A DNA stretch of 64,000 nucleotides from positions 3,039 to 67,038 of the forward strand of contig JAKAWR010000002.1 of the NCBI GenBank assembly GCA_021816935.1. Reading direction: 5' to 3'. This DNA is from Actinomycetes bacterium (lineage in GTDB: Bacteria; Actinomycetota; Acidimicrobiia; Acidimicrobiales; JAMCPL01). The position numbers and the translations under genes were made by a program. Below are positions 36,812 to 59,811 of this stretch, piece after piece. Under the pieces are notes generated by a model, which was not told where the DNA came from, searched no databases, and was given only the letters and a program-made list of their open reading frames with translations. Position 1 is the first letter of the stretch. The number at the start of each line of letters is the position of its first letter.

Positions 36812-37366
36812 CTATGGACCCTTGCTGCAGTGCGCCTTTGACCAGCTCTTGATAGCAACATTGTCCTGGTTGATCTTCGCCGAGGACACTTGACCGGCCA
36901 ACTGCTTCAACTGCGCAGGCACACTGGTCGGCGGCGGGCTCTCGGGTGGAAGGGTGCCGAAGTACTGCAACTCCTTGGAAAAAATCGGGTACAGTTCGGT
37001 ATACAGGTTGCCCGCATCACTTCTGATCGCCGGGGGAGCAGCCTTTCTCATCGCCGTCAGGTCGGTAAGGATGGTAGCCAGGCCCGTCTTAGCTGCCCGG
37101 ATGGTCTTCGGTGGCACGCCGGCTATCGCTACGTAAGAGGCCTCGGGACGGCAGAATGCCGCGAACTGCTTGTCGAACGAGGTAATCGGCAGAACGCCGG
37201 CACTTGTTGTCGTCGCTTGCCTCGGCGTGGCCGCCGTGGCCGTGGTCGTAGCCGGCTTTGCCCCGTGAGGCGACGCGCAGCCTGGAAGACCTGCCGCCGA
37301 TAGTACTGTCGCCACGAGCATCGCCGCAGTTCCTACCTTGCCTGTCACGGTTCTTGCCATTACCAT
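36812..37366 (-). CDS. small lipoprotein, last gene of pilin-like module A
   Basis: Lipobox ..AAGLPGC|ASP, a Thr/Ala linker, and conserved Cys near both ends of the domain (..FAAFCRPE.. ..WSKAHCSKGP). It is a paralogue by layout of 46570..47346. Confidence 0.6.
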   Translation of the reverse strand: MVMARTVTGKVGTAAMLVATVLSAAGLPGCASPHGAKPATTTATAATPRQATTTSAGVLPITSFDKQFAAFCRPEASYVAIAGVPPKTIRAAKTGLATILTDLTAMRKAAPPAIRSDAGNLYTELYPIFSKELQYFGTLPPESPPPTSVPAQLKQLAGQVSSAKINQDNVAIKSWSKAHCSKGP

Positions 37367-37410: not shown

Positions 37411-38550
37411 TCACGGGTTACCGGAGGGCGCAACAGAACTGATCTGTGCGTCCAATGCCTTGATGATGTTCACGCTCAGCTGGACAGGGAACCTGCCCCC
37501 GAGTGCCACGAAGGTCAACAATACGACCACGCCCCGTGCTGCGAGAACCGCCGCCAGCCTGTCCAGGGAGAACTGGACCAGCCCCGACACCGGTGAGGAT
37601 CCTGCGGTACCAGGGGTGGTCGGCGTGGTCGGGTCCCCCGATATCGTCGAGGTGCTCGGGATCCCCGATGTGGTCGAGGTCGGGTTCCCGGGCGTAGTGG
37701 ATGCGGACCGGGTCGTCCCGGCGGCGGGCGTTCCCGCAGCGGACGATCCGGGTGCACCGGGCAGGTAACCGATCACCGACTCCAGCTCGACGAACGCATC
37801 TCCCATCCGGGGTATCGATACCCGGGTCCATGACTGGCCCAGCTTCGTAGATCCCATCTGACCCGCAGAGTTGAGCGACGCCTGAAGGCACGACAATCCG
37901 CGGGTGCTCCCGAGGGCATTCACGAACGCCACCGCTGCCTGCGGGGGGCCGGCGAGCCAGGCTTCCGTCTGCACCGCCACCTGCATCGGAGATGCTTCGC
38001 CGCCGCCGTTCGGGCTCGTCACAGTGGCAGCGGCTCCCCCCGTGAACCCCGGCATCGAAGATCCCTGGGGGTTGGTATAGCCGAACGCGGGGGACTGGAC
38101 TCCTCCGGGGAACGACACGCCCTTACTGCCGGCACACGAGGCGACTCCGGCGAGTTGGCTGCCGCCCGAGACCGCCGTCTCGGGAAGTGTCTTGGCCGCC
38201 GGTGCGATCACGCTCCACGTTGACGGCACCTCGCTCGACGACAGGATTGCAGCGGCGAGAAGGGGGTTGCTCGTCGTCGTGGCGGGCGGCGTCGCTGCAG
38301 GCTGCGACACCTTGCCATCACCCTTCTTACCTGCGCATTTTCCCGCCCGTAACGCCGGACTTCCGGAGGCGCACGCACGATTTCCCGGCTGTCCTCCCGC
38401 CGAGCGTCCTCCTGCGGAGTGTACTCCTGCCGGCGAACAGGCTGCCTCGATTATCAACAGGACCGTGCCCAGCAGCACCGCAACCACCGTGCCGCCACGG
38501 TGCTGCCGCCTGCGCACCATGAACGGCCTTCTGGCGTACGACGTCTCCAC
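37411..38550 (-). CDS. lipoprotein/secreted protein immediately downstream of the PilX-like giant (module A)
   Basis: N-terminal anchor ..VVAVLLGTVLLIIEAAC|SP. It lies 9 nt after the stop of 38560... Its positional counterpart is 47399..48238. Confidence 0.6.
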   Translation of the reverse strand: METSYARRPFMVRRRQHRGGTVVAVLLGTVLLIIEAACSPAGVHSAGGRSAGGQPGNRACASGSPALRAGKCAGKKGDGKVSQPAATPPATTTSNPLLAAAILSSSEVPSTWSVIAPAAKTLPETAVSGGSQLAGVASCAGSKGVSFPGGVQSPAFGYTNPQGSSMPGFTGGAAATVTSPNGGGEASPMQVAVQTEAWLAGPPQAAVAFVNALGSTRGLSCLQASLNSAGQMGSTKLGQSWTRVSIPRMGDAFVELESVIGYLPGAPGSSAAGTPAAGTTRSASTTPGNPTSTTSGIPSTSTISGDPTTPTTPGTAGSSPVSGLVQFSLDRLAAVLAARGVVVLLTFVALGGRFPVQLSVNIIKALDAQISSVAPSGNP

Positions 38551-38559
38551 GGGCCTGCG

Positions 38560-41500
38560 CTAGCCGCCGGTCACTACCCGGCCGCTTGGAAGCTGGGTCA
38601 TCGTGGCGACGAACCAGGCCGTCGTCGGGCTCGATGCCCCCGCCCCGGCCGACTGCTGGAGGAGGTACGGTGCCGGATCGAACATCTCAGCCGGCGTGTA
38701 AGAGATGTGGACGTTCCTGAAGCCCGACGGCACGTAGCACGCCACCTCGCAACCCCACGCACTTCCGCTGTTCCATCCCTGGAAGAACTCGAAATGGCTC
38801 ATCAGCAGGCCCGCCGAGGCGAAACCGTCGTTGTATTGCTGGATGATCGAACCGACGAACGTGGCTGTGTCAAGCCCATGAACCATTCCGCTCGATTCGG
38901 TCGTGTTCGAGTACGGGAACTCGTTCCCGGACAGGAGGTTCTGGACGGCGACTGACCCGTTCTGGATCACCTGGGGTACCGACGTCGCAGCGCCGGCGCT
39001 GTCGTAAGTGCTCATCTCGACGTTCGGAAGGGAGTTGGACGCAACGATATCGGCATCGACCACTGGGTCGTACACCGCAGGGAACGAGTTGGACGGGCCA
39101 TGCACCCACGTGCTCTCCCAGGTCTGCAGGTTTCCCTCGTAGCCGGCCAGACCACTGCAGAAGCTGCTCAGATCGAGCATGGAGCAGAAATCGAGCAACG
39201 CCCCGCCGCCCAGAGTTCCGTAGGAGAAGTAGTACTCAGCCCACTGCCGGCTGCACGAATCCAGCGGGATGGGGAACGCGAACGCTATGCTGTACGGCGG
39301 TGTGCAGCTCGGAACCGGCGGAGGTGACGGCTTCTTGCTGTTGGCGCTCGGGTTGGTGGTGTAGAGGTTCATCGCCAGACTGTCCGAGGAGACGTGCCAA
39401 TCAGACGCACTGGGCGGGCTCCCGGCCCCGGCATCGAGCGGGCAGGCACCCGTGATGCCGATGATGGACTCGACCTGCGAGCCCAAGCCGCAGTAGTAGC
39501 CCTGCAGCTCGATGGTATAGATGTAGACGAAGATGTCGTAAACGCAATTCGCGAAGTTGGTGATGCTGCAGCTGAGATCGGGCGGGATGATGCTGTTCCC
39601 GGCAATGCTGGGCTCGTCAGGAGGTGTCGGGGCGGTCTTCGCAATCCCGCACCACGAAATACCGGAGCCGGTCACGGGATTGGGAATCGACGGGTTGATT
39701 GTGCAGTTGTTGTCATTCTGCCCGTTCACTACCGGATGGACGATCTCCACATTGCCCTCCGGGTAGTAGGTTCCCGAGCTGTCCTGGAAAGGCTCTCCAA
39801 GCGGGAGGTTCCCGCCTGGGGCCAGGCCGAGTGAGTCTGGGCAATTGTAGGGCACGGTCCTCCCGCCGTTCCCGGCGCAGGCATAGATGACATTACCGCT
39901 TATGTCGATATTGTTATCTGCCGCGATTGTCAAACTGCCGTTCAAAGTACCCTGTACTATCGCGTCACCCCAAGCGCAGTTATGGTGCTGGAGGGGCTCC
40001 CCCTCGTTGGACCCGGTGGAGAAGGGCAGCACGAAGCCTACGGGGAAGTTGGTGCATGACGAGTCGCCACCGGGCAGGTTGTGCACATAGATCACCCCAG
40101 CTGCCGGGAGGGGCATCGCCGTCCCGCTGTTCTCGCCGCTGCAGTTCGATGCATTGGCACCGGTCTGTCCCCACACCAACATGTCACCGCCCGCCTGCAG
40201 CTGGATAAAGGTCGGCCCGTAGAACTGGCAGCCTCCCGACTGCGCTGCAATTGCCGAGAGCTGACTGAAATCGGGCTCCGGAGGCGTCACGACGCCATTC
40301 AGCAAATGCCGGCCCGCAGTGGCGGGAGCCTTGCCGTTGCAGCCGGCAAGAAGGGTCACGTTATATGTGGTACCAAAGATCGGTCCGATGGAGAACCCTA
40401 CCGAGGGAAGGTTCGAGTAGATATACGGATACCACTTCGTGCCCGAGGGTGCCTGAAATTGCGATACTCCTGATGGGTACTTGTTGGCACTGCCGAAGGT
40501 CACGTCCGCTTTCGTCAAGTCAGGCTGACCGCAGACATAGAGTGCATCGTTCGTGTACACCTTCCCGGCAATCGTCGTCTTGAGACCGTAGTAACCGCTG
40601 CCGGCGTCGGTACCGCTGCCAGGTGGGTTGGCAGCCAGGCTCGGGTAGCCCGGAGTGTTCCCCCCCGTCGGCGTGCCGTACAGGTCATTGATGTTGCACA
40701 CGATAGGGAACGGACCGTGCGTCGGTATCGGAGCCAGAACGGCGCTAACAGCACTCAGTATCCCGTTCACGATGTCTTGGCCGATCGGGATGCCGAACAG
40801 GTTGATAGACGAAAGGCCGGCCAGGGACTTCCCGAGCATCTCCTGGACCATGCCGCTCGCCAGTATCTGGCCGATAGGGTTGGTGTCGTAGGCGTGATAG
40901 TTGCAGAAGAGCGCGCCGATCTTGATCAGACCCGTGGGACCGTTCCCGAGCAGCATGTTGATGATGGTTGACATGCTTGGAGGAAGGAGGCCGGAGCTCT
41001 TGGCAAAGTTGACTGCGTCCATCATGAGCTGGAACCACTCGCTGGACGCGTAAGTGTAGGGGCTTGTCGTCTCGTAGTTGGTGAAGAAGGCGTACGACAG
41101 AGCCGCATTCTGCAAGGCGACCTCCTCGGTCGAGTACTGCGTCCACGGAGAGAGACCGGCCCTGCCCACGACAATCAGGTACATCGTGCCCGTGGCCGGG
41201 TTCGACCCGGTCGACCCGGCCACCGCGGCCTGGGCGCCGTCAACCGTGTACGCATAGCCTTCGTTCAGGTTCGCGCTGGAGCCGCTCACAGCCGTCCATG
41301 TACCGTACATCGGCTCGGAATCGCTGCCGAGATCCGTCTTGGATATCGTGGGCAACGGCGGTGCCTGCGTTCCTCCCACATACTGGCCCAGCAATGAAGT
41401 CGCCGAGTTCACGCTGGTGCAGTAATTGGTCGGCAGGAAGAAGGCCGGGTCGCTCGCCGACGGTGACTTGCAAGTCACATCGTTGTACTTCACATAACCG

Positions 41501-41817
41501 GGGTCTTCCTGGAGGCGCGCCATATAAGCCGATACGCCGGATTCTGCAGCCACGGCGGCTGCCTTCTGGTTCTGGACCCGCAAGGTCAGAGGCACGTGCT
41601 GGCTGACGTTGGCGTACAGCACGGCAGGGATCAGTGCGAGCAGCAGCATGACCGCCATCACGGTAAGCATGGCCTGGCCGGCCGGTCCCCGCATCCGCAC
41701 GGCCGCAGCTTCCCGGCCTGCGCGACCGTCCCGGAATCTTCCCACCGCAGTTACCGGACCACCGGCCGGGTAGGTATCACGCATGTTTGGACAACTCCTT
41801 GCAGCCAAGAGCCTCAT
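38560..41817 (-). CDS. giant PilX/GspK-like minor-pilin-type protein (module A), about 1085 aa
   Basis: Hydrophobic N-terminus ..RGPAGQAMLTVMAVMLLLALIPAVLY with no Glu at +5, followed by ..NQKAAAVAAESGVSAYMARL (PilX_N-like). It is Cys-rich with beta-helix-like segments (GDAIVQGTLNGSLTIAADNNIDISGNVIYAC). The ATG at 41817 overlaps the upstream stop (TGATG); the track start is 41931. Confidence 0.72.
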   Translation of the reverse strand: MRLLAARSCPNMRDTYPAGGPVTAVGRFRDGRAGREAAAVRMRGPAGQAMLTVMAVMLLLALIPAVLYANVSQHVPLTLRVQNQKAAAVAAESGVSAYMARLQEDPGYVKYNDVTCKSPSASDPAFFLPTNYCTSVNSATSLLGQYVGGTQAPPLPTISKTDLGSDSEPMYGTWTAVSGSSANLNEGYAYTVDGAQAAVAGSTGSNPATGTMYLIVVGRAGLSPWTQYSTEEVALQNAALSYAFFTNYETTSPYTYASSEWFQLMMDAVNFAKSSGLLPPSMSTIINMLLGNGPTGLIKIGALFCNYHAYDTNPIGQILASGMVQEMLGKSLAGLSSINLFGIPIGQDIVNGILSAVSAVLAPIPTHGPFPIVCNINDLYGTPTGGNTPGYPSLAANPPGSGTDAGSGYYGLKTTIAGKVYTNDALYVCGQPDLTKADVTFGSANKYPSGVSQFQAPSGTKWYPYIYSNLPSVGFSIGPIFGTTYNVTLLAGCNGKAPATAGRHLLNGVVTPPEPDFSQLSAIAAQSGGCQFYGPTFIQLQAGGDMLVWGQTGANASNCSGENSGTAMPLPAAGVIYVHNLPGGDSSCTNFPVGFVLPFSTGSNEGEPLQHHNCAWGDAIVQGTLNGSLTIAADNNIDISGNVIYACAGNGGRTVPYNCPDSLGLAPGGNLPLGEPFQDSSGTYYPEGNVEIVHPVVNGQNDNNCTINPSIPNPVTGSGISWCGIAKTAPTPPDEPSIAGNSIIPPDLSCSITNFANCVYDIFVYIYTIELQGYYCGLGSQVESIIGITGACPLDAGAGSPPSASDWHVSSDSLAMNLYTTNPSANSKKPSPPPVPSCTPPYSIAFAFPIPLDSCSRQWAEYYFSYGTLGGGALLDFCSMLDLSSFCSGLAGYEGNLQTWESTWVHGPSNSFPAVYDPVVDADIVASNSLPNVEMSTYDSAGAATSVPQVIQNGSVAVQNLLSGNEFPYSNTTESSGMVHGLDTATFVGSIIQQYNDGFASAGLLMSHFEFFQGWNSGSAWGCEVACYVPSGFRNVHISYTPAEMFDPAPYLLQQSAGAGASSPTTAWFVATMTQLPSGRVVTGG

Positions 41818-42890
41818 CAGTACATCCCCGCGCCAAAACCGATCGCCAGTGCGACATTGTCCATGGTGACCTCCTGGTGAACCACTGTCGGCGGGCTCTT
41901 CGACACCGCCTCGTCGTTGCATACCTTGCATGCCAGGCTTCGTACCTCAACGCTGAAGTAGACACCAGCCACGCTGTCCGCGTCCGTTGTGCATGCAAGC
42001 CCGTCTCCGCCAGCCGCGGTTTGGCCGGCAAGTTGTGTAGAGGTAAAGGTGCAGTTGTCAGTGTTGCCGTCGGCATTGTTCCCGGCCGCATAACCGTCGA
42101 TATATCCACTGTTGTAAGTGCCTGGTGCCTGTAGGTCCTCATTTGCAAAGATCTGGGGACCTGAACAAGGCGCGAACTGGCCGGGCGAGCCGGCCGAGTC
42201 TCCACCTGTACAGGTCGCCGCCGGTGCCGGCCCGTACACTCCGAATATCTGCGCCAGAATCGCGAGGGGACTGGCGGGTGGCGTCACCGTGGCCGAAGTC
42301 AGCGTTCCACTCGACGTACCGCAAGCTGCAGCCCAGGTAGGGTTGGTGGCACGGCTGTCCGTGAACCAGTTGCCCGCCTCGATGAACGAGAACGGCACCA
42401 CGTCGGCTTCCAGCACGTAGTTCGCGTAGGCCGGGTTCGCTATCGTATGAAAGGCATCGGGCTTAGCGTAAACGTAAACCCATCCTGGCAGATGCTGGGC
42501 CCCGTCGGGCAGGCCCGAATAGAAGATCATCGCGTCCGGACACGCCAGGACCACCGCCGGGTCCCCCGTCATGCCCGGATCTCCTGCACCCTCGAGAACG
42601 GAGTTGAGAGCGTTCCCATCCGCTGCCGGCATCGGTGTGGCCGAGGTGATGAAATGCGCGAGCTCGCTCGTGAGCAAGGTGGCCTGGCTCTGCGCGTCCA
42701 GATCCCGCGATGTCGTGTAAAGCGCGTCCGTGAAGTTGGAAAGCGCAAGGAACACCATGGACATCAGGATCATAAAAATCAGGCTCGCCACCATCAGCTC
42801 GATCAGCGTGAAACCTTCGGCGGTCGTCCCGGCCAGCGGATTGCCCCGTGCCCGCTTGATCGCCCCTAATTGCACGACAACGATCCCCAT
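41817..42890 (-). CDS. prepilin-type N-terminal cleavage/methylation domain protein, PilW-like position (module A)
   Basis: ..KRARGNPLAGTTAEG|FTLIELMVASLIFMILMSMVFLAL is a class III signal with Glu+5. Start is ATG 42890 or GTG 42875; the track ORF starts at 42956. Confidence 0.75.
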   Translation of the reverse strand: MGIVVVQLGAIKRARGNPLAGTTAEGFTLIELMVASLIFMILMSMVFLALSNFTDALYTTSRDLDAQSQATLLTSELAHFITSATPMPAADGNALNSVLEGAGDPGMTGDPAVVLACPDAMIFYSGLPDGAQHLPGWVYVYAKPDAFHTIANPAYANYVLEADVVPFSFIEAGNWFTDSRATNPTWAAACGTSSGTLTSATVTPPASPLAILAQIFGVYGPAPAATCTGGDSAGSPGQFAPCSGPQIFANEDLQAPGTYNSGYIDGYAAGNNADGNTDNCTFTSTQLAGQTAAGGDGLACTTDADSVAGVYFSVEVRSLACKVCNDEAVSKSPPTVVHQEVTMDNVALAIGFGAGMY

Positions 42891-45800
42891 GACGAGCTGC
42901 CGGCCGGATTGCTCACGGTAACCGTACTGTTGGGCAGGCATATTCTCGCGTCCCATCCATATCCTGTGTAACTGACACTGGCAGTTATCCAGCTACTGTT
43001 GTGCCAGGTGATGCTCGCACTCTGACCTCCGATGGACGCCGAGACGTCGTTGAAGTTGCTGCCGTATATGTTGAAGGTCAGATTGAGGGTGCACCACCCC
43101 CAATACTTCACCCCGAACCACCCCACACCTCCGGCGGTGCAGTGGCTGTAGTTGGTCGGAGAAACGGAGCTTATCGACGGCGGGCTCAGGTAGGTGTAAG
43201 CCCAGTAGGCGTTGGACCCCTCGTCTGCCCAGTTCGTCGCCTGGACGTGCACCTGGTCGTAATTGCCGTTGGGCGACGGTGGAGCATGGACCGTGAAGTA
43301 CTCCTCGGAGCCGCCGACGCCGCCCTCACCGCATGGGCCTTTGAACGGCCACACCCAGACGGCAGTGCTGTAGCCGCTGATGCTGCTCGCCCAACCCGTC
43401 CCTCCGTCCCAGAACGCCACTTCTTGGATGTAGTCGAAGTTCGAGCCGCAGATTGTGACAGTGTTGCCGCCGCCGGCCGGGCCGTTCGTGGGCGAGATGT
43501 CGCTGATGTGCGGGGTGTTCGCGTAGGTGTACGTTACGGAGTTCGACGTGCCGACCGGGTTCGCGAGATACAGGGGGACCTGCTCAGGACCGTTCAGCGT
43601 GCTTGTGCATCCGAGGAGCAGGGAATGATAGTGCGCTGCAGGAGCGTTCGGGATGGTGAGCGTCTCGCCGAGACCGTTACCAGTCGAGGTTGTCCAGCCG
43701 GCCTGCACGGTAACGGCGTCACAACCAAAGTTGACGGTGGTCACGTGGTCGAAGTAGTTGCCGTACAGCGTGACGGGGTTCCCGCCGCCTACAGGCCCGC
43801 CGCAGTAGCCTGCCGCCGGCGACTTACAGGACGATATGTGGGGCAAGTGATCCCAGGTGAAGGTGGTGGTCGGCGGGTTGCACGACGAAGCCGACAGGGC
43901 ATTGTCGACCACCTGAACGCATGCGGAACCCCCATCCACACCAGCCGCATCGGGTGGCGACGGCGGGGACGGCGGGGACGCAGCTGTGATGTAGTTGTAG
44001 CTAAGTCCGTTGGTGAGATCGTGTCCGAGGTTCGCCAGGTCGGACGGGCAGGGACCGAGGTTCAACGGATCAAGGATGCTCCACGAGAACTTCTGGACCG
44101 AGAACGAGGCCGCCGGGTAGTAGGTTGCGCCGCTGTCAGCCGGGTAATCGAAGCCGACCTCGTAGGTCCCTCCCGGGTTCGATAGCGCGTTGCCTCCGGT
44201 CGGATTGAACCCGCCGCCGCAGATCGTGACCGTAGTACCACCGCCGATCGGCCCCGCCGCCGGGCTGATGGACGAAACGCTCGGGGGGAAGATGTAGAGG
44301 TAGTTGCAGGCGACATTCTGGCCGTTGAGGCTGAGATCCGAACCCCCGTTGATCGACCTGTCGTAGGTCGCCTCGTCCTGGCAGTTGCTCGTCGAGGTGC
44401 CGGTATCGAGGGGATCGGACGAGACGGTCTCGGTCTGGGTATTGCCGTTCAGCGTATAGCTATGCTGTCCCGTTACCGTGATAGATGCCCAGTTCACCGA
44501 GTTGCCCAAGAGGAGGTCCCATCCGGCGCAGAAGCCGAAGTTGGCAAGTGGGTCACACAGATACCAGTCCACCGGAGTCTTCGCGGTGATCTCCGTATCG
44601 GAATCGACGTTGAAGGACGCGTCGATCCCGGCGGGGAGCCCATTCGAGCCCGACGATCCGCACGCCTGCCCGTTGGTTATGTAGACGCACACCTCGACAT
44701 TCGTTGCTCCGCTGAAATTGAACCCGACGATCTCGAGTTGCGTGTTGCCCCACGGTGTACCCGACGGAACCTCGTAGCGACACCTCGTAGGCGAGCCCGG
44801 CGGCGGATTGCCGGGGGCGCACTGCGCGTTCGGGTCGCCCGAATCCTGGTAGGTGCACTGGGCGGCCGTCTGGCCGCCCTGGCAGGAATAGATGCGGTAG
44901 ATGTAGGGATTGACGTCGTAGTTGTAGGTAGCCGCATTGGAGGTGCCTGCCGGATTGCTCAGCGTCACGTGGGCATCACCGCCGGATGGATCCGGGGACG
45001 CCGGGGCAGTCACATCGACGGCTTGCCACGACCCGTTCAGGCCGGAGCAGTAGCTCGAATCGGATGGCGAGGCCTGCTGGACGGCTGCGGTGCTCGCCTC
45101 GCTCCCGTTCGAGTCGCTCGCCGGATCGAACGATGCCTGGTAGATCCCCGTGGTTCCCGGAGGGTTGAGGACACACAGGACGACAGTATTGCCGCCGTCG
45201 ACCGGCCCGAAGGCCGACATCGAAGCGGTAGACGGCTGATCCCACGGGGGGGCCGCGATGGCCTCGATCACCGGAGGCCCGCCCGGATTGCCGCACTGGG
45301 AAGGATCGAGCTCGCAAGGGTCGGTGATCTTTGACGGGAAAACCACCGTCAATATCTGCGAAAGACCGAGGTTGACGGCCTCGCTTACCTGGCTGGCACC
45401 GCTCGGGTCAGCCGTAACGGTATACGAGCCGGGGGCAAGCCCGACGAACGCAGCGCAGCCGCTGGGATTGGTGGCCGCGTCCGGGGGGGTTCCGCCCACA
45501 CTCACCGTGATGTTCGGTACCCCCACCCCGTTCGGGTTCTGCACCAGCACGTCGATCTGGGGCGGCGTCTCCAGGGTAGCCTGGCTGACCGATGCCTTCC
45601 GAGTACCGGAGCCCCACGTGACGGTGCTCACGGCCCGCAGCAGGAGCTGCGGATCGCCGCCCAGCCCGAAGCATTTGCTTGTCAAGGTCGCGCCGGCCAC
45701 GGCTCCGGTTGACGGCGAGATGCTACCGCCGGCGTCCTCCACCACCTCTACGGACTGAGAGAACGAATAGGGAGTGCCGGCCGCAACCTGGGTGCCGGCG

Positions 45801-46249
45801 GTGTTGCCGTTTCCCTGGCAGGCCGGCCAGCCGTCCCCGGCAGATGAGTAGCTTGTCGGGTGAGTCGTACCGGAATCCGAGGACTGCAGCTGCGCACCCG
45901 AGGAGAACGAAGGAAGAAAGACGCCCGTAGGGTGCGCCTTAATGCACGCTACCTGGGAACTTGCGAGGCTCGCACCCTCGACATGGGACTTGTTGACTGC
46001 CGCCCCGGCGAAGATCGACTCGATCAGGTATACCGCAGGCGTCAGTACCATGAGGAGGAGAGCCAGCGCCACGACGACTTCGATAAGGGTCATGCCCCGC
46101 TCTTCGCCGGCCACGGCAGCGAGCGCACGCGAACGATTCGACGTGATCCGGCGGCAGTCATGCGGCACCTGCAAACCCGCCCGATCCTGTTCGGCTGCGG
46201 GGTCACGCCGGCGCCTCCCCGACTCTTGCGCACCCCTCGTAGCATCCAT
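42866..46249 (-). CDS. giant prepilin-type protein, PilV-like position (module A), with CarboxypepD_reg-like and multiple IPT/TIG-like Ig domains
   Basis: ..AGEERG|MTLIEVVVALALLLMVL (Glu+5). GTG at 46114 would give a classic 7-aa leader (M)AGEERG. IPT-like motifs GPIGGGTTVTICGGGF, GPVGGGNPVTLYGNYF and GPAGGGNTVTICGSNF. ..GCAAFVGLAPGSYTVTA.. is CarboxypepD_reg-like. Confidence 0.75.
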   Translation of the reverse strand: MDATRGAQESGRRRRDPAAEQDRAGLQVPHDCRRITSNRSRALAAVAGEERGMTLIEVVVALALLLMVLTPAVYLIESIFAGAAVNKSHVEGASLASSQVACIKAHPTGVFLPSFSSGAQLQSSDSGTTHPTSYSSAGDGWPACQGNGNTAGTQVAAGTPYSFSQSVEVVEDAGGSISPSTGAVAGATLTSKCFGLGGDPQLLLRAVSTVTWGSGTRKASVSQATLETPPQIDVLVQNPNGVGVPNITVSVGGTPPDAATNPSGCAAFVGLAPGSYTVTADPSGASQVSEAVNLGLSQILTVVFPSKITDPCELDPSQCGNPGGPPVIEAIAAPPWDQPSTASMSAFGPVDGGNTVVLCVLNPPGTTGIYQASFDPASDSNGSEASTAAVQQASPSDSSYCSGLNGSWQAVDVTAPASPDPSGGDAHVTLSNPAGTSNAATYNYDVNPYIYRIYSCQGGQTAAQCTYQDSGDPNAQCAPGNPPPGSPTRCRYEVPSGTPWGNTQLEIVGFNFSGATNVEVCVYITNGQACGSSGSNGLPAGIDASFNVDSDTEITAKTPVDWYLCDPLANFGFCAGWDLLLGNSVNWASITVTGQHSYTLNGNTQTETVSSDPLDTGTSTSNCQDEATYDRSINGGSDLSLNGQNVACNYLYIFPPSVSSISPAAGPIGGGTTVTICGGGFNPTGGNALSNPGGTYEVGFDYPADSGATYYPAASFSVQKFSWSILDPLNLGPCPSDLANLGHDLTNGLSYNYITAASPPSPPSPPDAAGVDGGSACVQVVDNALSASSCNPPTTTFTWDHLPHISSCKSPAAGYCGGPVGGGNPVTLYGNYFDHVTTVNFGCDAVTVQAGWTTSTGNGLGETLTIPNAPAAHYHSLLLGCTSTLNGPEQVPLYLANPVGTSNSVTYTYANTPHISDISPTNGPAGGGNTVTICGSNFDYIQEVAFWDGGTGWASSISGYSTAVWVWPFKGPCGEGGVGGSEEYFTVHAPPSPNGNYDQVHVQATNWADEGSNAYWAYTYLSPPSISSVSPTNYSHCTAGGVGWFGVKYWGWCTLNLTFNIYGSNFNDVSASIGGQSASITWHNSSWITASVSYTGYGWDARICLPNSTVTVSNPAGSSSWGSLSCN

Positions 46250-46569: not shown

Positions 46570-47346
46570 GTGGATTACACAAGCAGCCGGGGGCATTCCC
46601 CTCGCCAAGACCTCGGGCCCTACCTCGGAGACCTGTCACATTGTCACGAGTTCCGGACCCGAAGATGGTCCGGGGGCGTACCATGCCATGACTCGCGTGA
46701 ACGCGGTGCTCCGATCGCTGCCGGCGCCGGCAAAGGCAAATTGGCCGCAGCATCATTAGCCGCAGCGGCAGCGACGATATCGTTGGCCTTGCTTGCGACC
46801 GCGTGCAGCCCGTCCCGTCCGAGCGCTGCACGTAGCTCCAAACCGGCCACCACGACTACGCGCTCCGCTGCGAGTAAGCCTGGACGGGCGTCTTCAACGT
46901 CAAGCACGACCTCGTCCTCCGGGCCGCGCACCCACACGACCGCGAGCAACACTACTGGCCCGGCTCGAACTGGTACCGGGGGACCCGCCAACTTCTGCTC
47001 CGCGATGGCTCAGTTCCTCTACTTTCCGAAGTCGGGGGCCGGTACGACCGGCGAGTTACTGCGCCTGGAACGCCAGAAGTCGAACGCGGTTGACGCCATG
47101 ATCGTGGATGCTCCCTCTAGCCTGCACGCCGATGCCACGAAGTTCTACGCGGCGGTGCACCCGCCGCTTGCCCAGATCATAGCGGTCCTGGTCACCATCC
47201 CATCTGCCTCCCCTTTGCCCGCACATCCTCCCGCGATCCTCACCAATGCCGGCCGCCAGTTCGAGTCCGCATACTCGAGTACCTCCTCGAAGGTCCTTAT
47301 CACCTGGTACGAGAGGCACTGCCCGCAAGCCAAGCAATCGGGGTAA
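46570..47346 (+). CDS. lipoprotein, paralogue by layout of 36812..37366
   Basis: Lipobox ..ISLALLATAC|SPS, a Thr/Ser linker, and Cys near both domain ends (..PANFCSAM.. ..WYERHCPQAK). The start is uncertain because the first ~50 aa of the track ORF are not signal-like. Confidence 0.55.
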   Translation: MDYTSSRGHSPRQDLGPYLGDLSHCHEFRTRRWSGGVPCHDSRERGAPIAAGAGKGKLAAASLAAAAATISLALLATACSPSRPSAARSSKPATTTTRSAASKPGRASSTSSTTSSSGPRTHTTASNTTGPARTGTGGPANFCSAMAQFLYFPKSGAGTTGELLRLERQKSNAVDAMIVDAPSSLHADATKFYAAVHPPLAQIIAVLVTIPSASPLPAHPPAILTNAGRQFESAYSSTSSKVLITWYERHCPQAKQSG

Positions 47347-47398: not shown

Positions 47399-48238
47399 CT
47401 ACTTAGATGCCCTTGCCGCCATATTCCCGACGACGGAAGACTCTACCTGCGTCGGGAACGTGCCGCCCACAGCAAAGAACGTACCCTCCACCACCTCGGA
47501 ACCGCTGCTGAAGAAGGCCATGTAGCCCTCGCCGACAAGTGGCGGGCTGGACATGACCACATCGAAGCTCGCCAGTTGCGAGGTGCCTTTCACCGCCAAG
47601 ACTTGGCGCGTCACTACTGCCTTCACCTTTCCGGTGGTCGTCTCCTCGACGCACTTGAGCCCCGCCGGGCTTCGAAGGTAGGCGATCACGCCGGAGGCGG
47701 CGGCGGCTGAACTCGCAAACGACACCGACGAATCGGCGACATAGAACGTCTCGGGAAGCCCCGCCTGTCCACCAGCCGGAGAGCCGCTACCTGGCGGGGT
47801 GCCGGTAGCACCGCCGGGAGAGCCCGCAACCGGAGCGGGGGGCGAGCCAGCCGAGGCGCTCTGAAGCGGATGGCCGTAGGAGGGGCCGGCCATTGCTATG
47901 TGAGCCGCCGCTATACAGGGAGGGAAGCCACTGAGACCGGAGGACTGTCCGGACTTCAAGAGCGACCACCCGGACGGGAAATCCGAGAGCCGCATGTTGA
48001 CGGACGCGGCAACCGCCTTCTGGGAAGGGGTGAGGGAGGAGTCGTGCGTTGTGGTGGGCACTGTATTGGACTGGTGAGGCGGCTGGGGCTTGCCGGGCCC
48101 GCCCGTACCGCTGAGCGGGGGCGTGGTCTTGTGATGCACGCTATTTCGCGACGGCGAGCTACCGCACCCTGCCGTCACTACCGCCGCCGCTAGCAACATC
48201 GCTGCCGGCTTCAGTGCTGCACGAGCGCGCGCTTGCAT
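47399..48238 (-). CDS. lipoprotein immediately downstream of the PilX-like giant (module B)
   Basis: Lipobox ..AAAVVTAGC|GSS. It lies 19 nt after the stop of 48258..51500. Counterpart of 37411..38550. Confidence 0.6.
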   Translation of the reverse strand: MQARARAALKPAAMLLAAAVVTAGCGSSPSRNSVHHKTTPPLSGTGGPGKPQPPHQSNTVPTTTHDSSLTPSQKAVAASVNMRLSDFPSGWSLLKSGQSSGLSGFPPCIAAAHIAMAGPSYGHPLQSASAGSPPAPVAGSPGGATGTPPGSGSPAGGQAGLPETFYVADSSVSFASSAAAASGVIAYLRSPAGLKCVEETTTGKVKAVVTRQVLAVKGTSQLASFDVVMSSPPLVGEGYMAFFSSGSEVVEGTFFAVGGTFPTQVESSVVGNMAARASK

Positions 48239-48257: not shown

Positions 48258-51200
48258 CTACGGCTGGAGAGAAGCTGGCACTGCAGTCTCTACATACGAC
48301 CCCGACATCTCGGTCCAGGGACTCCCGGCCGACGACAGCAAGTACGGCGGCGGGTTCAACAGCTCGGACGGGTCGTAACTGAAGTCAACCGTCTTGTAGC
48401 CGGACGGGACGAAACACGCGTACTGGCAACCCGAAGGATAGCCCCCTAGCAAGCCGCCGACCCCACCTGGGAAGAACTCGAAGTGGCTGAGCGACAACCC
48501 CGCGTTCTGGAGCGAGTTCGCGTACTGCTCCACCACTGAACCCACCGTCGTGAGGGTGCCAAGGCCGTGGGTACCGCCGCTGAAACTGCCCTGCCCGTAG
48601 GGGCAGAGGTTGACCGTGTTCCCGGTGGGCTGACTGCCGCAGTCCCAGTACGACGTCGTATCGCTGATCGGTGTGGCATAGACGTTGCCCACAGTCGGGT
48701 TCTGCAGGGTGAACGACCCGTTGACGATGCCAAGGTTCGGGTAGTCCATGGTCGAGCTCTCCGACGAGGAGGCGGACACCATCGGACTCGAGTTGGAGGC
48801 AAGAACCAGAGCGTCGACGGTCGGGTTGTACACCGACGAGAACGGGTTCACGGGGCCGTGCGTGAAGGTGGACTCGTACTTCTGCAGGACAGCCTCGTAA
48901 CCGCCGTCGCACGGCGATATGCCGAGCACGTTGCAGATGTCCTGGATGCCGGCACTGAGGCCCATCGCGCCGTAGTCGTAATAGTACGAGAGCCACTGGC
49001 CTCCACAGGAGTCCAGAATCCCGGCAATGAAGTCGTTCCAGGCCTGGCTCCAGTTGCCGCTGAGTATGGCCGTCCAGTTGAAGCTGAAAGAGACGTTCCA
49101 GTTGTTGCACGTGGGGTGCGCAGGTCGAGCGGGCGGAGCTGGTGCGTTGGTGTTCGTGTTCGCCCAGTTGTCCTCGAGACTCGTCACCGTGCACGTCGAC
49201 TCGCTCGCCGATGCACGCGTTACGGGACTTGAGATCGAGCCGTTACCATTCGAAGGCGCGTTGACCCCGCAGAAGTCCTTGTACTCCACACCGTATGCCC
49301 ATGTGGAAATATCGTACATCGCGTCCTCGAAACAGGTCCCCCAGGTGGCGACGTTCCAGGCCGCGCAGGATCCCGACGGGGCTGAAAGCGGCGACACGGG
49401 CGGCAACGGCACGGAATTGGGCTCTGGCGTGCCGCCTGTACCCGGATCGCCCTGTTCCCAGCCCGCACACGGATTGGTTGAGCCCCCCGGGTTCCAGCCC
49501 GCTCCGTTTACGACGCTGCTGGAAGCAGGGCAGTTGTTGTCGTTCTGGCTGGCGTCGACCGGATGCACGACGACGACGTTGCCCTGCGGGTAATACGTCC
49601 CGTTCGCATCGGTTGCCGGGTTCACGAGCTCGATGTTGCCACCGGGTGCAAGCCCCAGGGTGTCCGGGCAGCTCGCCGGCACGGGCGTACCTGGCGGGTT
49701 GGTTGATGCCGCGCAGGCGTAGATGAGGTTCCCCGTCACGACGATGTCATTGGACGCGCCGATAGTGAGCTTGCCTGACAGCGTCCCCTGTACGAGCGCG
49801 TCGCCCCAGAGGCAGTTGTGGTTCTGCAACAGGTTGTCGATCCCGTAGGGAAGGGATGAGACCCCGTATACATTGGGCACGATCGAACTCGACGAGAACG
49901 GGATGCAACTTCCCGTCGCGACATTGGACACGTATATCACCGAGGGCACAGCCGCTGATCCGCCGGTGGTCGGGCAGGAGCCTGCAGGCGTGTTCGGGCT
50001 CCAGGCCTGGAACGACGTGCCGTTGAGCTGGATGAACGTGGGTCCGAAGTAATGGCATCCCCCGGTGGCCGAGGCATTGACCCTGATCGCCTCGAAGTCC
50101 GGAACGGGAGGCGTCAGCGAGGTCACCGTTTTCGTAGCCGGCGGCGAGGTGACGTTCGCACACCCCGAGAGAATCGGTATGTCCCAGGTGTAGTCCTGCC
50201 ACGGTGTCGGGATCGACCCCGACCATGACCAGGCGAAGAGGTCGTTCCCAAGGCTGTGGTTCGGATTGTAGGACTGGGGCGGGCCAGTGGCCGAAGACGA
50301 GTACTGGGGAAGGATCCCCGCCTTGGAGCTCGTGAGCTCGATGGTGGCGCTGTTCAAGTTCGAGGTGGAGCCGCTCGGGCTGCAGGTGTAGAGCGAGTCG
50401 TTCGAGTATACCTTCCCACTCATGTTCGTGGTCATGCCGTAATAGCCGTTGTACATGTCATTGACGTTGCAGAGCAACGGGAAGGGACCATACGCCGGTC
50501 CGAGGAAGGTCTGGACGTCTGTTATCAGCGAATTAACCGCGCTCTCTATGCTGTTGTACATCTCCTGGCCGAGAGGGTAGCCGAAGATGCTGAACGACGC
50601 GAGGCCCTTCAGATACTGGGCCATCTCGTTGTCCACCATTGTAGTGAGTATCGGGCTGTCCAGCAGCGATAGGATCGTGTTCGACTGGTAGGCGTGGTAG
50701 TTGCACATGTAGAAGCCGAGCTTGACCGCTCCGACCGGCCCGTTGCCGAGGAACTCGCTCATCAGCGACTTCATCGAGGCAGGCAGGCTGCCTGACACGA
50801 GGGACACCACCCATTCTATGAAGGTGAACGCGGCGGCATTGGTGTACGCAAAGGGGCTGGAGGTCTCGTAATTCGTGAAATAAGAGTACGAGAGGGCGGG
50901 GTTATCGAAGTTCGACTCGACGGTGCGATAGCGGTAGTGTCCGGGCGAGCCGGCCCGTCCCGTGACCTTTGCCGTGATATACCCGCTGGAGGCATTCGAG
51001 GTATCGACCCTGAAAACATACGACTCATTCAGGCCACCTCCGGCAGAAGCCGACCCTGGTACGGGTGCCCAGCCGCCGTACGCGTTGTTCGGCCCCTTGT
51101 ACGTAGACGGGCAACTCGACGACGAACCGAAATAGAACCCGTCCCACTGACCGCTCGACGGCGCTGTACACTGGGCGTCGTTGTAGGACACGTTCGATAT

Positions 51201-52596: not shown

Positions 52597-52632
52597 ACTG
52601 ACATTATCGGGGCTTGCCCTCCGTGTGTCTAG

Positions 52633-52689
52633 TACGTGAAACTACCCGTATGCAGGCAGGCGACCTACGCATTCGGGTGATTTCACGTA
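52633..52689. promoter_or_regulatory. 9-bp inverted repeat in the AT-richer divergent promoter region of module B
   Basis: tacgtgaaa (52633-52641) and tttcacgta (52681-52689), between the divergent genes 51577..52596 (-) and 52854..56756 (+). Confidence 0.35.
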
Positions 52690-52853
52690 TAGACTTACTT
52701 ACGTCACTCCCAGCATAATCGTTATGTGTGGGTTAATTCGATTTGCGGTCACGACCACAGACGCCGTGTCGCGTTGTCGCTTCCGGCAACCGCGGGTGGC
52801 CCCGGTGAACGTGAACGTAGGCTGCACCCGCTCGGCACGGAGCGCCCGTCGGC

Positions 52854-59289: not shown

Positions 59290-59811
59290 TTACCAGAGCT
59301 GTCCTCCTTCGAAGCGCCAGCGCAGGCTTACGACCTTCATTGGCCCGAGCATCGCCACCCAAATGAGAACCCACGTACTCAGTATATGGATCGCGAACAT
59401 CGCCGTCCCGGCGGAGGCCAGCGCCCAGCTACCGTTCTCGACATGGGTCAAATGGATCACGTACCAGAGCGCGATCCCTTCCGGAATCACGGCAACCAGG
59501 GTGAACAGGGGTGGCCAGTCCTTGTTCCAGCGGTACTGCTGTGCAAAGTGGTACACCAGCTCCCAGACGATCCCCAAAACGGCCATGAGCCCGAGCGTCT
59601 CGAAGGTCATCCGGTAATCAAACGGGAGGGCATTGTACGCCACTGGTAGGGACACCATGACCCTGTTCATCTGCATCGGGACCATGCCGGCACCTCCCGA
59701 TCCCATTGACGGGCTCGGGAGGAACGGAGTCACGATGGCCGTCCAGACCACTCCGACCGTGAGCAGGAGGAAAAGCCTCGTCTCGATCCGTCCACGGAGG
59801 GTGAACGTCAT
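59290..59811 (-). CDS. small polytopic membrane protein of unknown function
   Basis: About 5 hydrophobic helices. ATG at 59811 (MTFTLRGRIETRLFLLLTVGVVW) sits directly after the upstream stop at 59808-59810. The track start at 59841 overlaps that gene. Confidence 0.6.
   Translation of the reverse strand: MTFTLRGRIETRLFLLLTVGVVWTAIVTPFLPSPSMGSGGAGMVPMQMNRVMVSLPVAYNALPFDYRMTFETLGLMAVLGIVWELVYHFAQQYRWNKDWPPLFTLVAVIPEGIALWYVIHLTHVENGSWALASAGTAMFAIHILSTWVLIWVAMLGPMKVVSLRWRFEGGQLW

What the first reader, a model, noticed from the sequence alone, without database searches (positions are those of the whole stretch)
42866..46249. PilV-like modular pilins built from a pilin head plus CarboxypepD_reg-like and serial IPT/TIG-like Ig domains
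Downstream of the G|MTLIE pilin helix, both large PilV-position proteins (42866..46249 and 52854..56756) contain a ..GC(A/V)(A/S)FVG(L/I)A.G.YTVTA.. segment typical of carboxypeptidase-regulatory-like beta-sandwiches. They then carry repeated GP(I/V/A)(G/A)GG(T/N)(T/P)V(T/Y)(I/L)(C/Y)G.(G/N)F motifs typical of IPT/TIG domains: at least 4 clear and about 6 total in module A, and at least 2 in module B. For module A, an in-frame GTG at 46114 gives a textbook 7-aa leader (M)AGEERG| in place of the 52-aa leader of the longest ORF. Pilins with whole domains grafted on are established in a few Firmicutes. A >1100-aa Ig-domain stalk on a pilin is far beyond those examples.
Basis: partly seen in the sequence, partly recalled or inferred. 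Interest (0 to 1): 0.7.

Follow-up and report, generated by a model that had tools for sequence, protein, structure and literature searches.

The report
Giant pilus-tip pilins with Ig-domain stalks
Two genes in this window encode unusually large type IV pilin-like proteins (about 1,100 and 1,300 residues), each a pilin head followed by a long chain of immunoglobulin-like domains that probably projects from the pilus tip as an adhesive stalk. This is an extreme, rare form of the already known "modular pilin" design.

Summary
ORF 42866..46249 (-) encodes 1,127 aa. It has a prepilin motif (ERG|MTLIE; N_methyl 23.0 bits, cut-off 21.2), a pilin-like head, one CarboxypepD_reg-like beta-sandwich (31.9 bits, cut-off 32.3) backed by a predicted fold, and six TIG-like domains (Pfam TIG 54 bits). 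Paralogue B (52854..56756, +) has the same front end with two TIG-like domains. It then carries about 600 aa of an undescribed acidic Cys repeat.

Each gene belongs to a four-gene module: PilV-like, PilW-like, a roughly 1,050-1,080-aa PilX-like protein and a lipoprotein-like ORF.

Only about seven clusters of such giant pilins (1,127-1,637 aa, 2-12 TIG-like domains) turned up among 1.84 billion representative proteins. One relative lies next to pilM, a pilO-like gene and a pilin gene.

The GTG start at 46114 has no ribosome-binding site, whereas ATG 46249 has a perfect AGGAGG. Three of four relatives checked also show a strong SD before a 39-56-aa leader. Modular pilins are also not confined to "a few Firmicutes": a 2021 catalogue lists 1,219, including pilin+PF13620 (66) and pilin+IPT (5).

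Verdict: a real feature and a new, extreme variant of a known kind. A tip-adhesin role is inferred, not shown.

The parts
42866..46249 (-). Giant PilV-like modular pilin A (1,127 aa precursor; about 1,075 aa, 110 kDa, pI 4.1, 32 Cys once cleaved at G52|M53)
   Evidence: ORF and translation; Pfam N_methyl, CarboxypepD_reg and TIG; composition; identical protein on independent assemblies
46094..46249 (-). Probable 52-aa basic leader peptide, ending ...GEERG. Start ATG 46249 is preceded by AGGAGG with a 5-nt spacer
   Evidence: SD scan; the same pattern in 3 of 4 relatives checked. Cleavage itself is inferred
45560..46093 (-). Pilin module (residues 53-230): hydrophobic alpha1 with Glu at +5, a variable loop, then a beta-sheet ending ...LLLRAVSTVTW...ATLETPP
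   Evidence: N_methyl 23.0 bits, TIGR02532 17.8 bits; AF2 helix and 4 strands; head alignment with smaller PilV-like relatives
45320..45559 (-). CarboxypepD_reg / transthyretin-like beta-sandwich (residues 231-310)
   Evidence: PF13620 31.9 bits against a 32.3 cut-off; Foldseek match to carboxypeptidase D and N domains, rmsd 2-3 A over 81-82 aa, 23% identity
42878..45244 (-). Stalk of six IPT/TIG-like domains (residues 336-1124), with a roughly 90-aa Cys-containing insert at 562-653
   Evidence: Pfam TIG 54 bits; family HMM domain table; weak PDB sequence matches to MET and plexin
41817..42890 (-). PilW-like minor pilin A (357 aa as called; G|FTLIELMVASL). Its start overlaps the end of pilin A by 25 nt
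   Evidence: N_methyl 25.4 bits; gene calls in L001; motif scan
38560..41784 (-). Giant PilX-like protein A (1,074 aa). N-terminal hydrophobic segment ...AGQAMLTVMAVMLLLAL with no Glu at +5; no known domain
   Evidence: Gene call; 35% identical over its full length to the module-B copy, E 1e-165; PilX_N only marginal; no Pfam, NCBIfam or PDB hit
37411..38520 (-). Lipoprotein-like ORF that closes module A (369 aa as called)
   Evidence: Gene call; no family; weak similarity to the module-B counterpart, E 4e-4. The lipobox-like Cys is read from the translation
52854..56756 (+). Giant PilV-like modular pilin B (1,300 aa): pilin head, CarboxypepD_reg-like domain, 2 TIG-like domains, shared insert, then an acidic repeat region
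54954..56753 (+). C-terminal 600 aa of B: 13 motif matches, about 40 aa apart, of 'NW(T/D)DNACDAAGNP....C'. Net charge -112, 5.5% Cys, no Arg and one Lys; no known family
   Evidence: Repeat and composition analysis; no Pfam or PDB hit; the same repeat in relative P0005
51577..52524 (-). PilW-like minor pilin B (315 aa as called), transcribed divergently from pilin B
   Evidence: N_methyl 26.5 bits, TIGR02532 22.5 bits; 23% identical to the module-A copy, E 9e-6
48258..51500 (-). Giant PilX-like protein B (1,080 aa)
   Evidence: PilX_N 13.7 bits, E 0.066
47399..48238 (-). Lipoprotein-like ORF that closes module B (279 aa)
52597..52853 (.). Divergent intergenic region between PilW-like B and pilin B, with one promoter-like site on each strand
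   Evidence: Consensus scan: - strand 52631..52603 (10 of 12) and + strand 52690..52719 (9 of 12). The number of sites in the whole 20 kb is not above shuffles

Best explanation
Both genes most likely encode tip-located modular minor pilins of a type IV pilus (a type 4 filament).

Inferred sequence of events: a prepilin peptidase cleaves the precursor after Gly52, removing an unusually long basic leader. The hydrophobic alpha1 helix of the PilV/GspI-like head then packs with the co-encoded PilW-like pilin and the giant PilX/GspK-like protein into the complex that primes assembly and caps the filament.

The C-terminal chain (one transthyretin-like sandwich, six TIG domains and one insert) cannot fit in the filament body. 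It would therefore project from the tip as a thin, disulfide-stabilised stalk. My own estimate of its length is roughly 30 nm, assuming about 8 domains of about 4 nm each. The stalk would act as an adhesin or reach-extender.

The two paralogous four-gene modules would give one pilus machine two alternative tips. Module A carries an all-Ig stalk. Module B carries a shorter Ig stalk ending in a polyanionic Cys-rich repeat.

Shown here by computation: domain content, gene order, paralogy, the rarity and conservation of the family, and its link to pilM, a pilO-like gene and a pilin gene in a relative. Inferred: cleavage, incorporation into a pilus, tip position and adhesion.
For: - Prepilin motif with Gly at -1 and Glu at +5, and HMM hits above cut-off for A.
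- AF2 model of residues 46-447 (pLDDT 64.9): a 51-residue helix, a 4-stranded sheet and two beta-sandwiches. Foldseek matches to the carboxypeptidase D and N transthyretin-like domain, to a MET receptor fragment and to tandem-Ig proteins.
- TIG 54 bits, and six family-HMM domains.
- Tight PilV-PilW-PilX-like gene order with overlapping or closely spaced genes, duplicated in the window.
- The same triad recurs beside giant-pilin homologues in L006, L007, L009 and L010. PilA-like pilins of about 190-210 aa lie nearby in L007, L008 and L010. A PilM_2 gene and a PilO-like gene lie next to the B-like homologue in L008.
- Smaller relatives of the head are ordinary-sized or PF13620-carrying PilV-like pilins; one is named PilV by JGI.
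- Published precedent that bulky modular pilins fit only at the tip and act as adhesins (PMC8179133).
Against: - No pilus assembly genes (pilB, C, D, M, N, O, T) were found in the ORFs of this 64-kb window that I scanned. Whether this genome has the machinery was therefore not shown.
- Assignment to PilV is sub-threshold: TIGR02523 scores 24.6 against a 52.2 cut-off for B, over alpha1 only, and gives no hit for A.
- PilX_N is only marginal.
- The top 50 Foldseek hits include no type IV pilin, and the loop at residues 63-107 of the model is poorly predicted.
- A 39-56-aa leader is atypical for type IV pilins.
- The full-length model failed (pLDDT 29.6), so the extended-stalk geometry is an estimate.
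- The organism and its envelope type are unknown.
Confidence: 0.65

Rival explanations
1. Pilin-anchored surface adhesin. The class III signal peptide and alpha1 helix serve only as a membrane anchor or export signal for a long Ig-domain cell-surface protein that is never polymerised into a filament, in the manner of a 'choice-of-anchor' protein.
For: - No assembly genes in the window.
- NCBIfam's 'choice-of-anchor Z repeating domain' (NF058597) hits the TIG-like repeats of relatives P0007 and P0018 above cut-off. As I understand the naming (not checked here), 'choice-of-anchor' denotes domains found behind different anchoring signals.
- The very long leader is unlike classical pilins.
Against: - A full pilin head, not just a helix, is conserved between the helix and the first sandwich, and it is shared with small PilV-like pilins.
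- The gene always travels with a PilW-like pilin and a PilX-like protein, which makes sense for a filament-priming complex.
- pilM, a pilO-like gene and a pilin gene are adjacent in L008.
Confidence: 0.15
2. Minor pseudopilin set of a short, non-extended type 4 filament (T2SS-like or Com-like endopilus), in which the giant subunits form a surface-exposed cap rather than the tip of a long pilus.
For: - The I-J-K-like triad is the conserved cap of T2SS pseudopili (established knowledge, also discussed in PMC8179133).
- Sub-threshold hits go equally to GspI, GspH, ComGE and PilV.
Against: - PilA-like pilins of about 190-210 aa, a PilM_2 gene and a PilO-like gene accompany relatives, which fits a type IVa-like pilus better.
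- No T2SS-specific genes were seen.
Confidence: 0.12
3. Shaft-decorating subunit. The giant pilin is inserted at intervals along the filament body on a flexible linker, giving a bottle-brush pilus.
For: Raynaud et al. do not exclude a position in the filament body if the linker is flexible enough. A Pro- and Gly-rich linker follows the transthyretin-like domain (residues 311-335).
Against: Its PilV position in a minor-pilin operon, and the steric bulk of a roughly 900-aa appendage, both favour the tip. There is no sign that it is a major subunit.
Confidence: 0.05
4. Artefact: a mis-assembled or fused ORF, or a chance long ORF in high-GC DNA.
For: High-GC genomes carry many spurious long ORFs.
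Against: - Codon-position GC is typical of coding sequence (GC3 0.79).
- The identical protein is encoded on independent assemblies.
- Full-length homologues at 27-37% identity occur in loci of 51-65% GC.
- Domain hits are significant.
Confidence: 0.01

Closest known systems
Modular type IV pilins as defined by Raynaud et al. 2021 (PMC8179133); experimentally studied examples are Streptococcus sanguinis PilB (pilin + vWA) and PilC (pilin + lectin)
   Same: An N-terminal IPR012902 pilin module is fused to domains that are not specific to pili. The proteins are minor pilins, predicted to sit at the tip and to act as adhesins.
   Different: PilB and PilC carry one globular module and are far smaller. 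Here 8 or more beta-sandwich-type domains (up to about 14 in relatives) form a stalk of 900-1,400 aa. The leader is probably 39-56 aa, and the partner PilX-like protein is also giant.
InterPro architectures IPR012902-PF13620 (66 proteins) and IPR012902-IPR002909 (IPT; 5 proteins) in Dataset S1 of PMC8179133
   Same: The same two added domain types follow a pilin N-terminus. Small relatives found here (P0104 at 458 aa, P0124 at 320 aa, P0064 at 564 aa) are pilin + PF13620 proteins.
   Different: The catalogue has no architecture that combines PF13620 with IPT, and none with multiple IPT domains. The largest case the paper names is an 860-aa protein with 12 IPR013211 motifs. None of these architectures has been studied experimentally, as far as I found.
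CofB (ETEC) and TcpB (Vibrio cholerae) type IVb minor pilins
   Same: A pilin domain is followed by a beta-repeat and a beta-sandwich domain on a flexible linker. The protein sits at the tip, initiates assembly and mediates binding (CofB as described in PMC8179133). Longer leaders are a type IVb trait (my own knowledge).
   Different: CofB has two extra domains and forms a homotrimer. No sequence similarity to it was detected here, and the gene context here is PilV-W-X-like, not type IVb.
PilY1 / PilC tip adhesin with the PilV-W-X minor pilins; T2SS GspI-GspJ-GspK cap
   Same: A three-subunit priming and cap complex presents a large (about 1,000 aa or more) adhesin at the filament tip. The K/X-type subunit lacks Glu5.
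   Different: No PilY1 beta-propeller (IPR008707) is present. Instead the bulk is carried by the pilins themselves: the PilV-like subunit and the PilX-like subunit each exceed 1,000 aa.

Membership tests
Type IV pilin (class III signal peptide; PF07963 / TIGR02532 / IPR012902) | Leader ending in Gly(-1), then about 20 hydrophobic residues with Glu at +5 | tested here: met
   A...GEERG|MTLIEVVVALALLLMVL. B...QSEG|MTLVEVLIAIFLIVMVL
Type IV pilin (class III signal peptide; PF07963 / TIGR02532 / IPR012902) | HMM score above the curated cut-off | tested here: met
   A: PF07963 23.0 against 21.2, and TIGR02532 17.8 against 16.3. B is just below (PF07963 20.1 against 21.2) but is a 30%-identical paralogue of A
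Type IV pilin (class III signal peptide; PF07963 / TIGR02532 / IPR012902) | Pilin fold: a roughly 50-residue alpha1 helix packed on an antiparallel beta-sheet | tested here: inconclusive
   The AF2 model (pLDDT 64.9) gives helix 10-60 and strands 114-127, 132-134, 156-169 and 172-182. The loop at 63-107 is below pLDDT 50, and no type IV pilin is among the top 50 Foldseek hits
Type IV pilin (class III signal peptide; PF07963 / TIGR02532 / IPR012902) | Cleavage and N-methylation by a prepilin peptidase; polymerisation by a type IV pilus machine | not testable with these tools
   No pilD, B, C, M, N, O or T in the window ORFs scanned. In a relative (L008) a PilM_2 gene, a PilO-like gene and a 190-aa pilin gene lie about 6-10 kb upstream of the giant pilin gene
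PilV (TIGR02523, type IV pilus modification protein) | Equivalog HMM above cut-off (52.2 bits) | tested here: not met
   B scores 24.6 bits over alpha1 only. A gives no hit; its best sub-threshold match is ComGE at 19.2 bits. A head-profile hit, P0158, is named PilV by JGI but itself scores only 21.4 bits
PilV (TIGR02523, type IV pilus modification protein) | Position immediately upstream of pilW and pilX in a minor-pilin operon | tested here: met
   Module A order is PilV-like, PilW-like, PilX-like. L007 has the same order. In L006 and L009 the giant pilin follows the PilX-like gene instead
Modular pilin (sensu Raynaud et al. 2021) | N-terminal IPR012902 motif plus at least one domain not specific to pilus biology | tested here: met
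   N_methyl + CarboxypepD_reg-like + TIG; definition from PMC8179133
IPT/TIG domain (PF01833) | HMM score above the gathering cut-off (20.9 bits) | tested here: met
   A 54 bits, B 36.6 bits; relatives 45-182 bits; weak PDB sequence matches to MET and plexin
CarboxypepD_reg-like domain (PF13620) | HMM score above the gathering cut-off (32.3 bits) | tested here: inconclusive
   A 31.9 bits (E 1.7e-7), B 21.7 bits, both below cut-off. Small relatives score above it (37.5 and 45.9). The predicted fold superposes on the carboxypeptidase D and N transthyretin-like domain at 2-3 A over 81-82 aa
PilX / GspK-type cap subunit (PF14341 PilX_N) | PilX_N HMM above cut-off (25.5 bits); hydrophobic N-terminus without Glu5 | tested here: inconclusive
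   13.7 bits (E 0.066) for the module-B protein and no hit for the module-A protein. The N-terminus AGQAM(L/I).V...LLAL has no Glu at +5 and is conserved in four orthologues

The most novel reading that the evidence does not exclude
These loci may define a distinct, rare sub-class of type 4 filament tip complex in uncultured bacteria with four features. (i) Both the GspI/PilV-type and the GspK/PilX-type cap subunits are giants of more than 1,000 aa. (ii) The pilins carry 39-56-aa basic leaders. (iii) Interchangeable tip cassettes let one machine display either a stalk of perhaps tens of nanometres built of Ig-like domains, or a polyanionic, Cys-rich repeat (net charge -112) that might bind cations or mineral surfaces. 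That repeat belongs to no described family.
Probability: 0.2. Interest if true: 0.65.

Novelty: new variant of a known kind. Interest (0 to 1): 0.5.

Why it matters
If these proteins really are incorporated into pili, they would be much larger than any pilin named in the 2021 survey of modular pilins. They are up to 1,637 aa with 12 TIG-like domains, against 860 aa for the largest case that survey names. This would push the "graft a module on a pilin" principle to a point where the appendage may rival short filaments in length.

It raises concrete, testable questions:
- How does a 110-160 kDa subunit get primed, extruded through the envelope and retracted?
- What is an unusually long leader for?
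- Do duplicated tip cassettes switch binding specificity?

The acidic Cys repeat of module B and the roughly 1,050-aa PilX-like partners are uncharacterised protein families with a clear functional context. The caveat is that the concept itself (modular tip pilins, including pilin+PF13620 and pilin+IPT) is already published, and everything here comes from uncultured organisms.

Tried and rejected
- **Full-length AlphaFold model of A.** With a 3-sequence alignment it gave pLDDT 29.6 and was unusable. No fold search was run on it.
- **Word-indexed homologue searches.** Full-length A found only itself and one 34%-identical protein. The head alignment gave only three small pilins. The PilX-like protein found itself and one 45%-identical protein.
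- **Exhaustive profile search with head + CarboxypepD_reg.** Most of its 1,879 hits were unrelated proteins with many CarboxypepD_reg repeats. Only hits covering the whole profile in one stretch were treated as family members.
- **Genome-contig scan.** The 7-sequence alignment had no usable conserved stretch. The source organism was not recovered.
- **Metagenome-contig scan** with the family-specific motifs YTYANTP and ICGSN(L/F)(Q/D)Y found no relative.
- **Taxonomy.** No paper mentions the assembly or run accessions. TreS and an SCO4651-family lipoprotein hint at Actinomycetota, but this is not established.
- **Rfam.** No family anywhere in the window, so no riboswitch upstream of either pilin gene.
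- **GTG 46114 start** was rejected for lack of an SD. Codon-position GC in the 52-codon leader does not settle the question.
- **Other libraries.** Pfam, NCBIfam and PDB gave nothing for the PilX-like giants, the lipoprotein-like ORFs or B's acidic repeats.
- **Promoter scan.** Two sites lie in the divergent intergenic region, but the total number of sites is no higher than in shuffled sequence.
Full report
**1. The observation**

The window is high-GC (about 64%). ORF 42866..46249 on the minus strand encodes 1,127 aa, and ORF 52854..56756 on the plus strand encodes 1,300 aa. Both show coding-type codon-position GC, with GC3 of 0.79 and 0.83.

Each has a prepilin motif followed by a hydrophobic helix with Glu at +5...GEERG|MTLIEVVVAL in A and ...QSEG|MTLVEVLIAI in B. 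A six-frame scan finds only four such motifs in the 64 kb. They are these two and two PilW-like genes.

| Pfam family (cut-off, bits) | A | B |
|---|---|---|
| TIG (20.9) | 54 bits, E 1.7e-14 | 36.6 |
| CarboxypepD_reg (32.3) | 31.9 bits, E 1.7e-7 | 21.7 |
| N_methyl (21.2) | 23.0 | 20.1 |

An HMM grown iteratively from the family's own repeats places six TIG-like domains in A and two in B. In A they are at 336-434, 486-561, 654-784, 800-912, 910-1008 and 1021-1124. That HMM was built from the same seven proteins it scores, so its E-values are generous. Its seed lies in the Pfam-supported TIG region, and single TIG-like domains also give weak PDB sequence matches to MET and plexin.

The identical protein is encoded on independently assembled ENA and Logan contigs, and the protein collection also lists it under NCBI.

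**2. Structure**

A full-length AlphaFold run with three sequences failed (pLDDT 29.6).

A second run covered residues 46-447 with nine sequences and gave pLDDT 64.9. It shows:
- a 51-residue N-terminal helix;
- a poorly predicted loop;
- a four-stranded sheet, which together with the helix is the pilin "lollipop";
- two beta-sandwiches.

Foldseek against the PDB superposes one sandwich on the transthyretin-like domain of carboxypeptidases D and N at 2-3 A over 81-82 residues and 23% identity. The whole model also matches tandem-Ig proteins and a MET receptor fragment. No type IV pilin is in the top 50 hits, so the head fold is consistent with a pilin but not proven.

The mature A protein would be 1,075 aa and 110 kDa, with pI 4.1, 1.6% Lys+Arg and 32 Cys. 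Most domains hold an even number of Cys, which is what a disulfide-bonded extracellular protein would look like.

**3. Context**

Each giant gene belongs to a four-gene module.

| Gene | Module A | Module B |
|---|---|---|
| PilV-like giant pilin | 42866..46249 (-) | 52854..56756 (+), divergent from the rest |
| PilW-like pilin | 41817..42890 (-), overlaps pilin A by 25 nt | 51577..52524 (-) |
| PilX-like protein | 38560..41784 (-), 1,074 aa | 48258..51500 (-), 1,080 aa |
| Lipoprotein-like ORF | 37411..38520 (-) | 47399..48238 (-) |

The modules are paralogous:
- pilins: 30% identity over the first 700 or so residues;
- PilW-like: 23% identity, E 9e-6;
- PilX-like: 35% identity over the full length, E 1e-165;
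- lipoprotein-like ORFs: weak similarity, E 4e-4.

The PilX-like proteins have the N-terminus AGQAM(L/I).V...LLAL with no Glu at +5, and only a marginal PilX_N score (13.7 bits). They match nothing else.

The other window ORFs I scanned are housekeeping genes or have no family match: treS, a MeaB-like GTPase gene, a class II tRNA synthetase gene, a his operon, TPP enzymes and transporters. No pilus assembly gene was found among them. Rfam finds nothing in the window.

**4. The family elsewhere**

I ran an exhaustive profile search with the head plus the CarboxypepD_reg-like domain against 1.84 billion representative proteins. Whole-profile, single-stretch matches were few: A, B, P0005 (1,187 aa), P0007 (1,542), P0018 (1,637) and P0023 (1,194). 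P0002 (1,267) came from the word-indexed search. All are giants with 2-12 TIG-like domains. Their loci range from 51 to 65% GC.

More distant head relatives are small or mid-sized PilV-like pilins. Several carry one or more PF13620 domains (P0104, P0124, P0064, P0120). One head-profile hit is named PilV by JGI.

Synteny is conserved:
- **L007:** giant pilin, PilW-like, a 1,082-aa protein, a 279-aa protein, with a 188-aa PilA-like pilin nearby.
- **L006 and L009:** the giant pilin follows the roughly 1,000-aa protein.
- **L010:** C-terminus of a giant pilin, PilW-like, a 1,021-aa protein, and a 211-aa pilin.
- **L008:** the B-like P0005 lies about 6-10 kb downstream of a PilM_2 gene, a PilO-like gene and a 190-aa pilin gene.

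This is the best available link to a type IV pilus machine.

**5. Start codon and leader**

That codon has no Shine-Dalgarno match (2 of 6). ATG 46249 has a perfect AGGAGG 5 nt upstream.

Three of the four relatives checked show the same arrangement, a GGGAGG-type site 5-6 nt before a start codon far upstream of the +1 residue:

| Locus / protein | Start | Leader length |
|---|---|---|
| Window, A | ATG 46249 | 52 aa |
| L006 / P0018 | ATG | 53 aa |
| L003 / P0002 | GTG | 39 aa |
| L008 / P0005 | ATG | 56 aa |

The fourth relative, L007 / P0007, has no clear SD before any candidate start. All four leaders in the table are rich in Arg or Lys. I therefore favour a long basic leader. This is sequence-based inference, and only 5'-end or N-terminal mapping can settle it.

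**6. Most likely mechanism (confidence 0.65)**

- The two proteins are modular minor pilins.
- After cleavage at G|M, the PilV/GspI-like head joins the PilW-like and PilX/GspK-like partners in the priming and cap complex.
- The chain of eight or so beta-sandwich-type domains is too bulky for the filament body. It would project from the tip as a stalk, which I estimate at about 30 nm assuming about 4 nm per domain.
- The stalk would serve adhesion. PF13620 on pilins has been predicted to bind carbohydrates (PMC8179133).
- Two cassettes would offer two tip chemistries.

Domain content, gene order, paralogy and family conservation are shown. Cleavage, incorporation, tip position and adhesion are inferred.

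The rivals are:
- a pilin-anchored surface protein that is never polymerised (0.15);
- the cap of a short pseudopilus (0.12);
- a shaft-decorating subunit (0.05);
- an artefact (0.01).

**7. Comparison with what is known**

Raynaud et al. 2021 (PMC8179133) defined modular pilins and counted 1,219 of them in 264 architectures, across both monoderms and diderms. Among them:
- IPR012902-PF13620: 66 proteins, the third commonest architecture;
- IPR012902-IPR002909 (IPT): 5 proteins;
- no PF13620+IPT combination and no multi-IPT pilin;
- the largest case named is 860 aa.

The design principle and both added domain types are therefore already catalogued, though not characterised experimentally. New here are the combination, the number of domains, sizes of 1,127-1,637 aa, the giant PilX-like partner, the probable long leaders and the duplicated cassettes.

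On membership:
- Type IV pilin: met on motif and HMM; inconclusive on fold; not testable on processing.
- PilV equivalog: not met on score.
- TIG: met.
- PF13620: 0.4 bits short for A, but supported by the predicted fold.

**8. Verdict**

The start-codon proposal and the framing of prior knowledge need correcting. It is a rare, extreme variant of a known kind. Interest is 0.5.

The C-terminal 600 aa of B shows 13 matches, about 40 aa apart, of the motif 'NW(T/D)DNACDAAGNP....C'. It has a net charge of -112 and matches no Pfam, NCBIfam or PDB entry. The same repeat occurs in P0005.

Noticed in passing
window 54954..56753 (+), C-terminal 600 aa of pilin B; also the C-terminus of P0005 (L008 about 12700..13564): Undescribed repeat: 13 matches, about 40 aa apart, of 'NW(T/D)DNACDAAGNP....C'. 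Composition is 13% Asp, 14.5% Gly, 5.5% Cys and 5% Trp, with no Arg and one Lys; net charge is -112. It has no Pfam, NCBIfam or PDB match. Some units contain D.D..(A)DG stretches that loosely recall Ca-binding thrombospondin type-3 or dockerin loops (my impression; not tested beyond the negative Pfam scan).
   Followed up: partly
window 46094..46249 (-); L006 10001..10159; L003 538..654; L008 9833..10000: Four giant-pilin genes have a strong Shine-Dalgarno site 5-6 nt before a start codon that lies 39-56 codons upstream of the +1 residue, which implies unusually long, Arg/Lys-rich class III leaders. Called leaders of the PilW-like genes (26 and 38 aa) and of a 211-aa pilin in L010 (40 aa) are also long. 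P0005 has Ala, not Gly, at -1 (KEEA|MSLVEV).
   Followed up: partly
window 38560..41784 (-) and 48258..51500 (-): The two PilX-like proteins (1,074 and 1,080 aa; 35% identical) have no detectable domain beyond a marginal PilX_N-like N-terminus. Orthologues of 1,008-1,082 aa accompany the giant pilin in L006, L007 and L010. They form an uncharacterised family that may take the place of PilY1.
   Followed up: partly
window 36812..37366 (-), 37411..38520 (-), 46570..47346 (+), 47399..48238 (-), 56944..58020 (+): A cluster of ORFs around both modules whose translations show signal-peptide and lipobox-like N-termini (for example LPGCASP, TAGCGSS, LLATACSPS). One hits the SCO4651-family lipoprotein model below cut-off (44 bits against 65). 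The others match no family. A 279-aa counterpart follows the module in L007.
   Followed up: partly
L006 16393..18153 (-), L007 16435..18378 (-), L010 9837..11741 (-): A protein of about 590-650 aa with Beta_helix / NosD-like hits recurs a few kb from the giant-pilin module in three relatives. In the window no Pfam family was reported for 59808..61400, and 61401..62786 hits a beta-propeller (PD40 / Lactonase).
   Followed up: no
window 7645..9858 (+) and 9916..12336 (-): Two large ORFs (737 and 806 aa) with no significant Pfam or NCBIfam family (only a sub-threshold DUF2844 hit), lying between housekeeping genes. Whether they are real genes was not examined.
   Followed up: no
window 52597..52853: The divergent intergenic region between PilW-like B and pilin B holds one sigma-70-like site on each strand (52631..52603 on the - strand, 10 of 12; 52690..52719 on the + strand, 9 of 12). 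The regional count of such sites is no higher than in shuffles.
   Followed up: partly
C-termini of A (window 42866..42890), P0002, P0007, P0018, P0023 and the L010 fragment: Almost all giant pilins of the A type end within a few residues of a Cys flanked by aromatic residues (...SLSCN, ...TCWSW, ...DTWCW, ...NNSCW, ...GEWWC, ...WSFCF). This could be a conserved terminal disulfide or a capping motif. No sortase or other C-terminal anchor motif is evident in the sequences.
   Followed up: no
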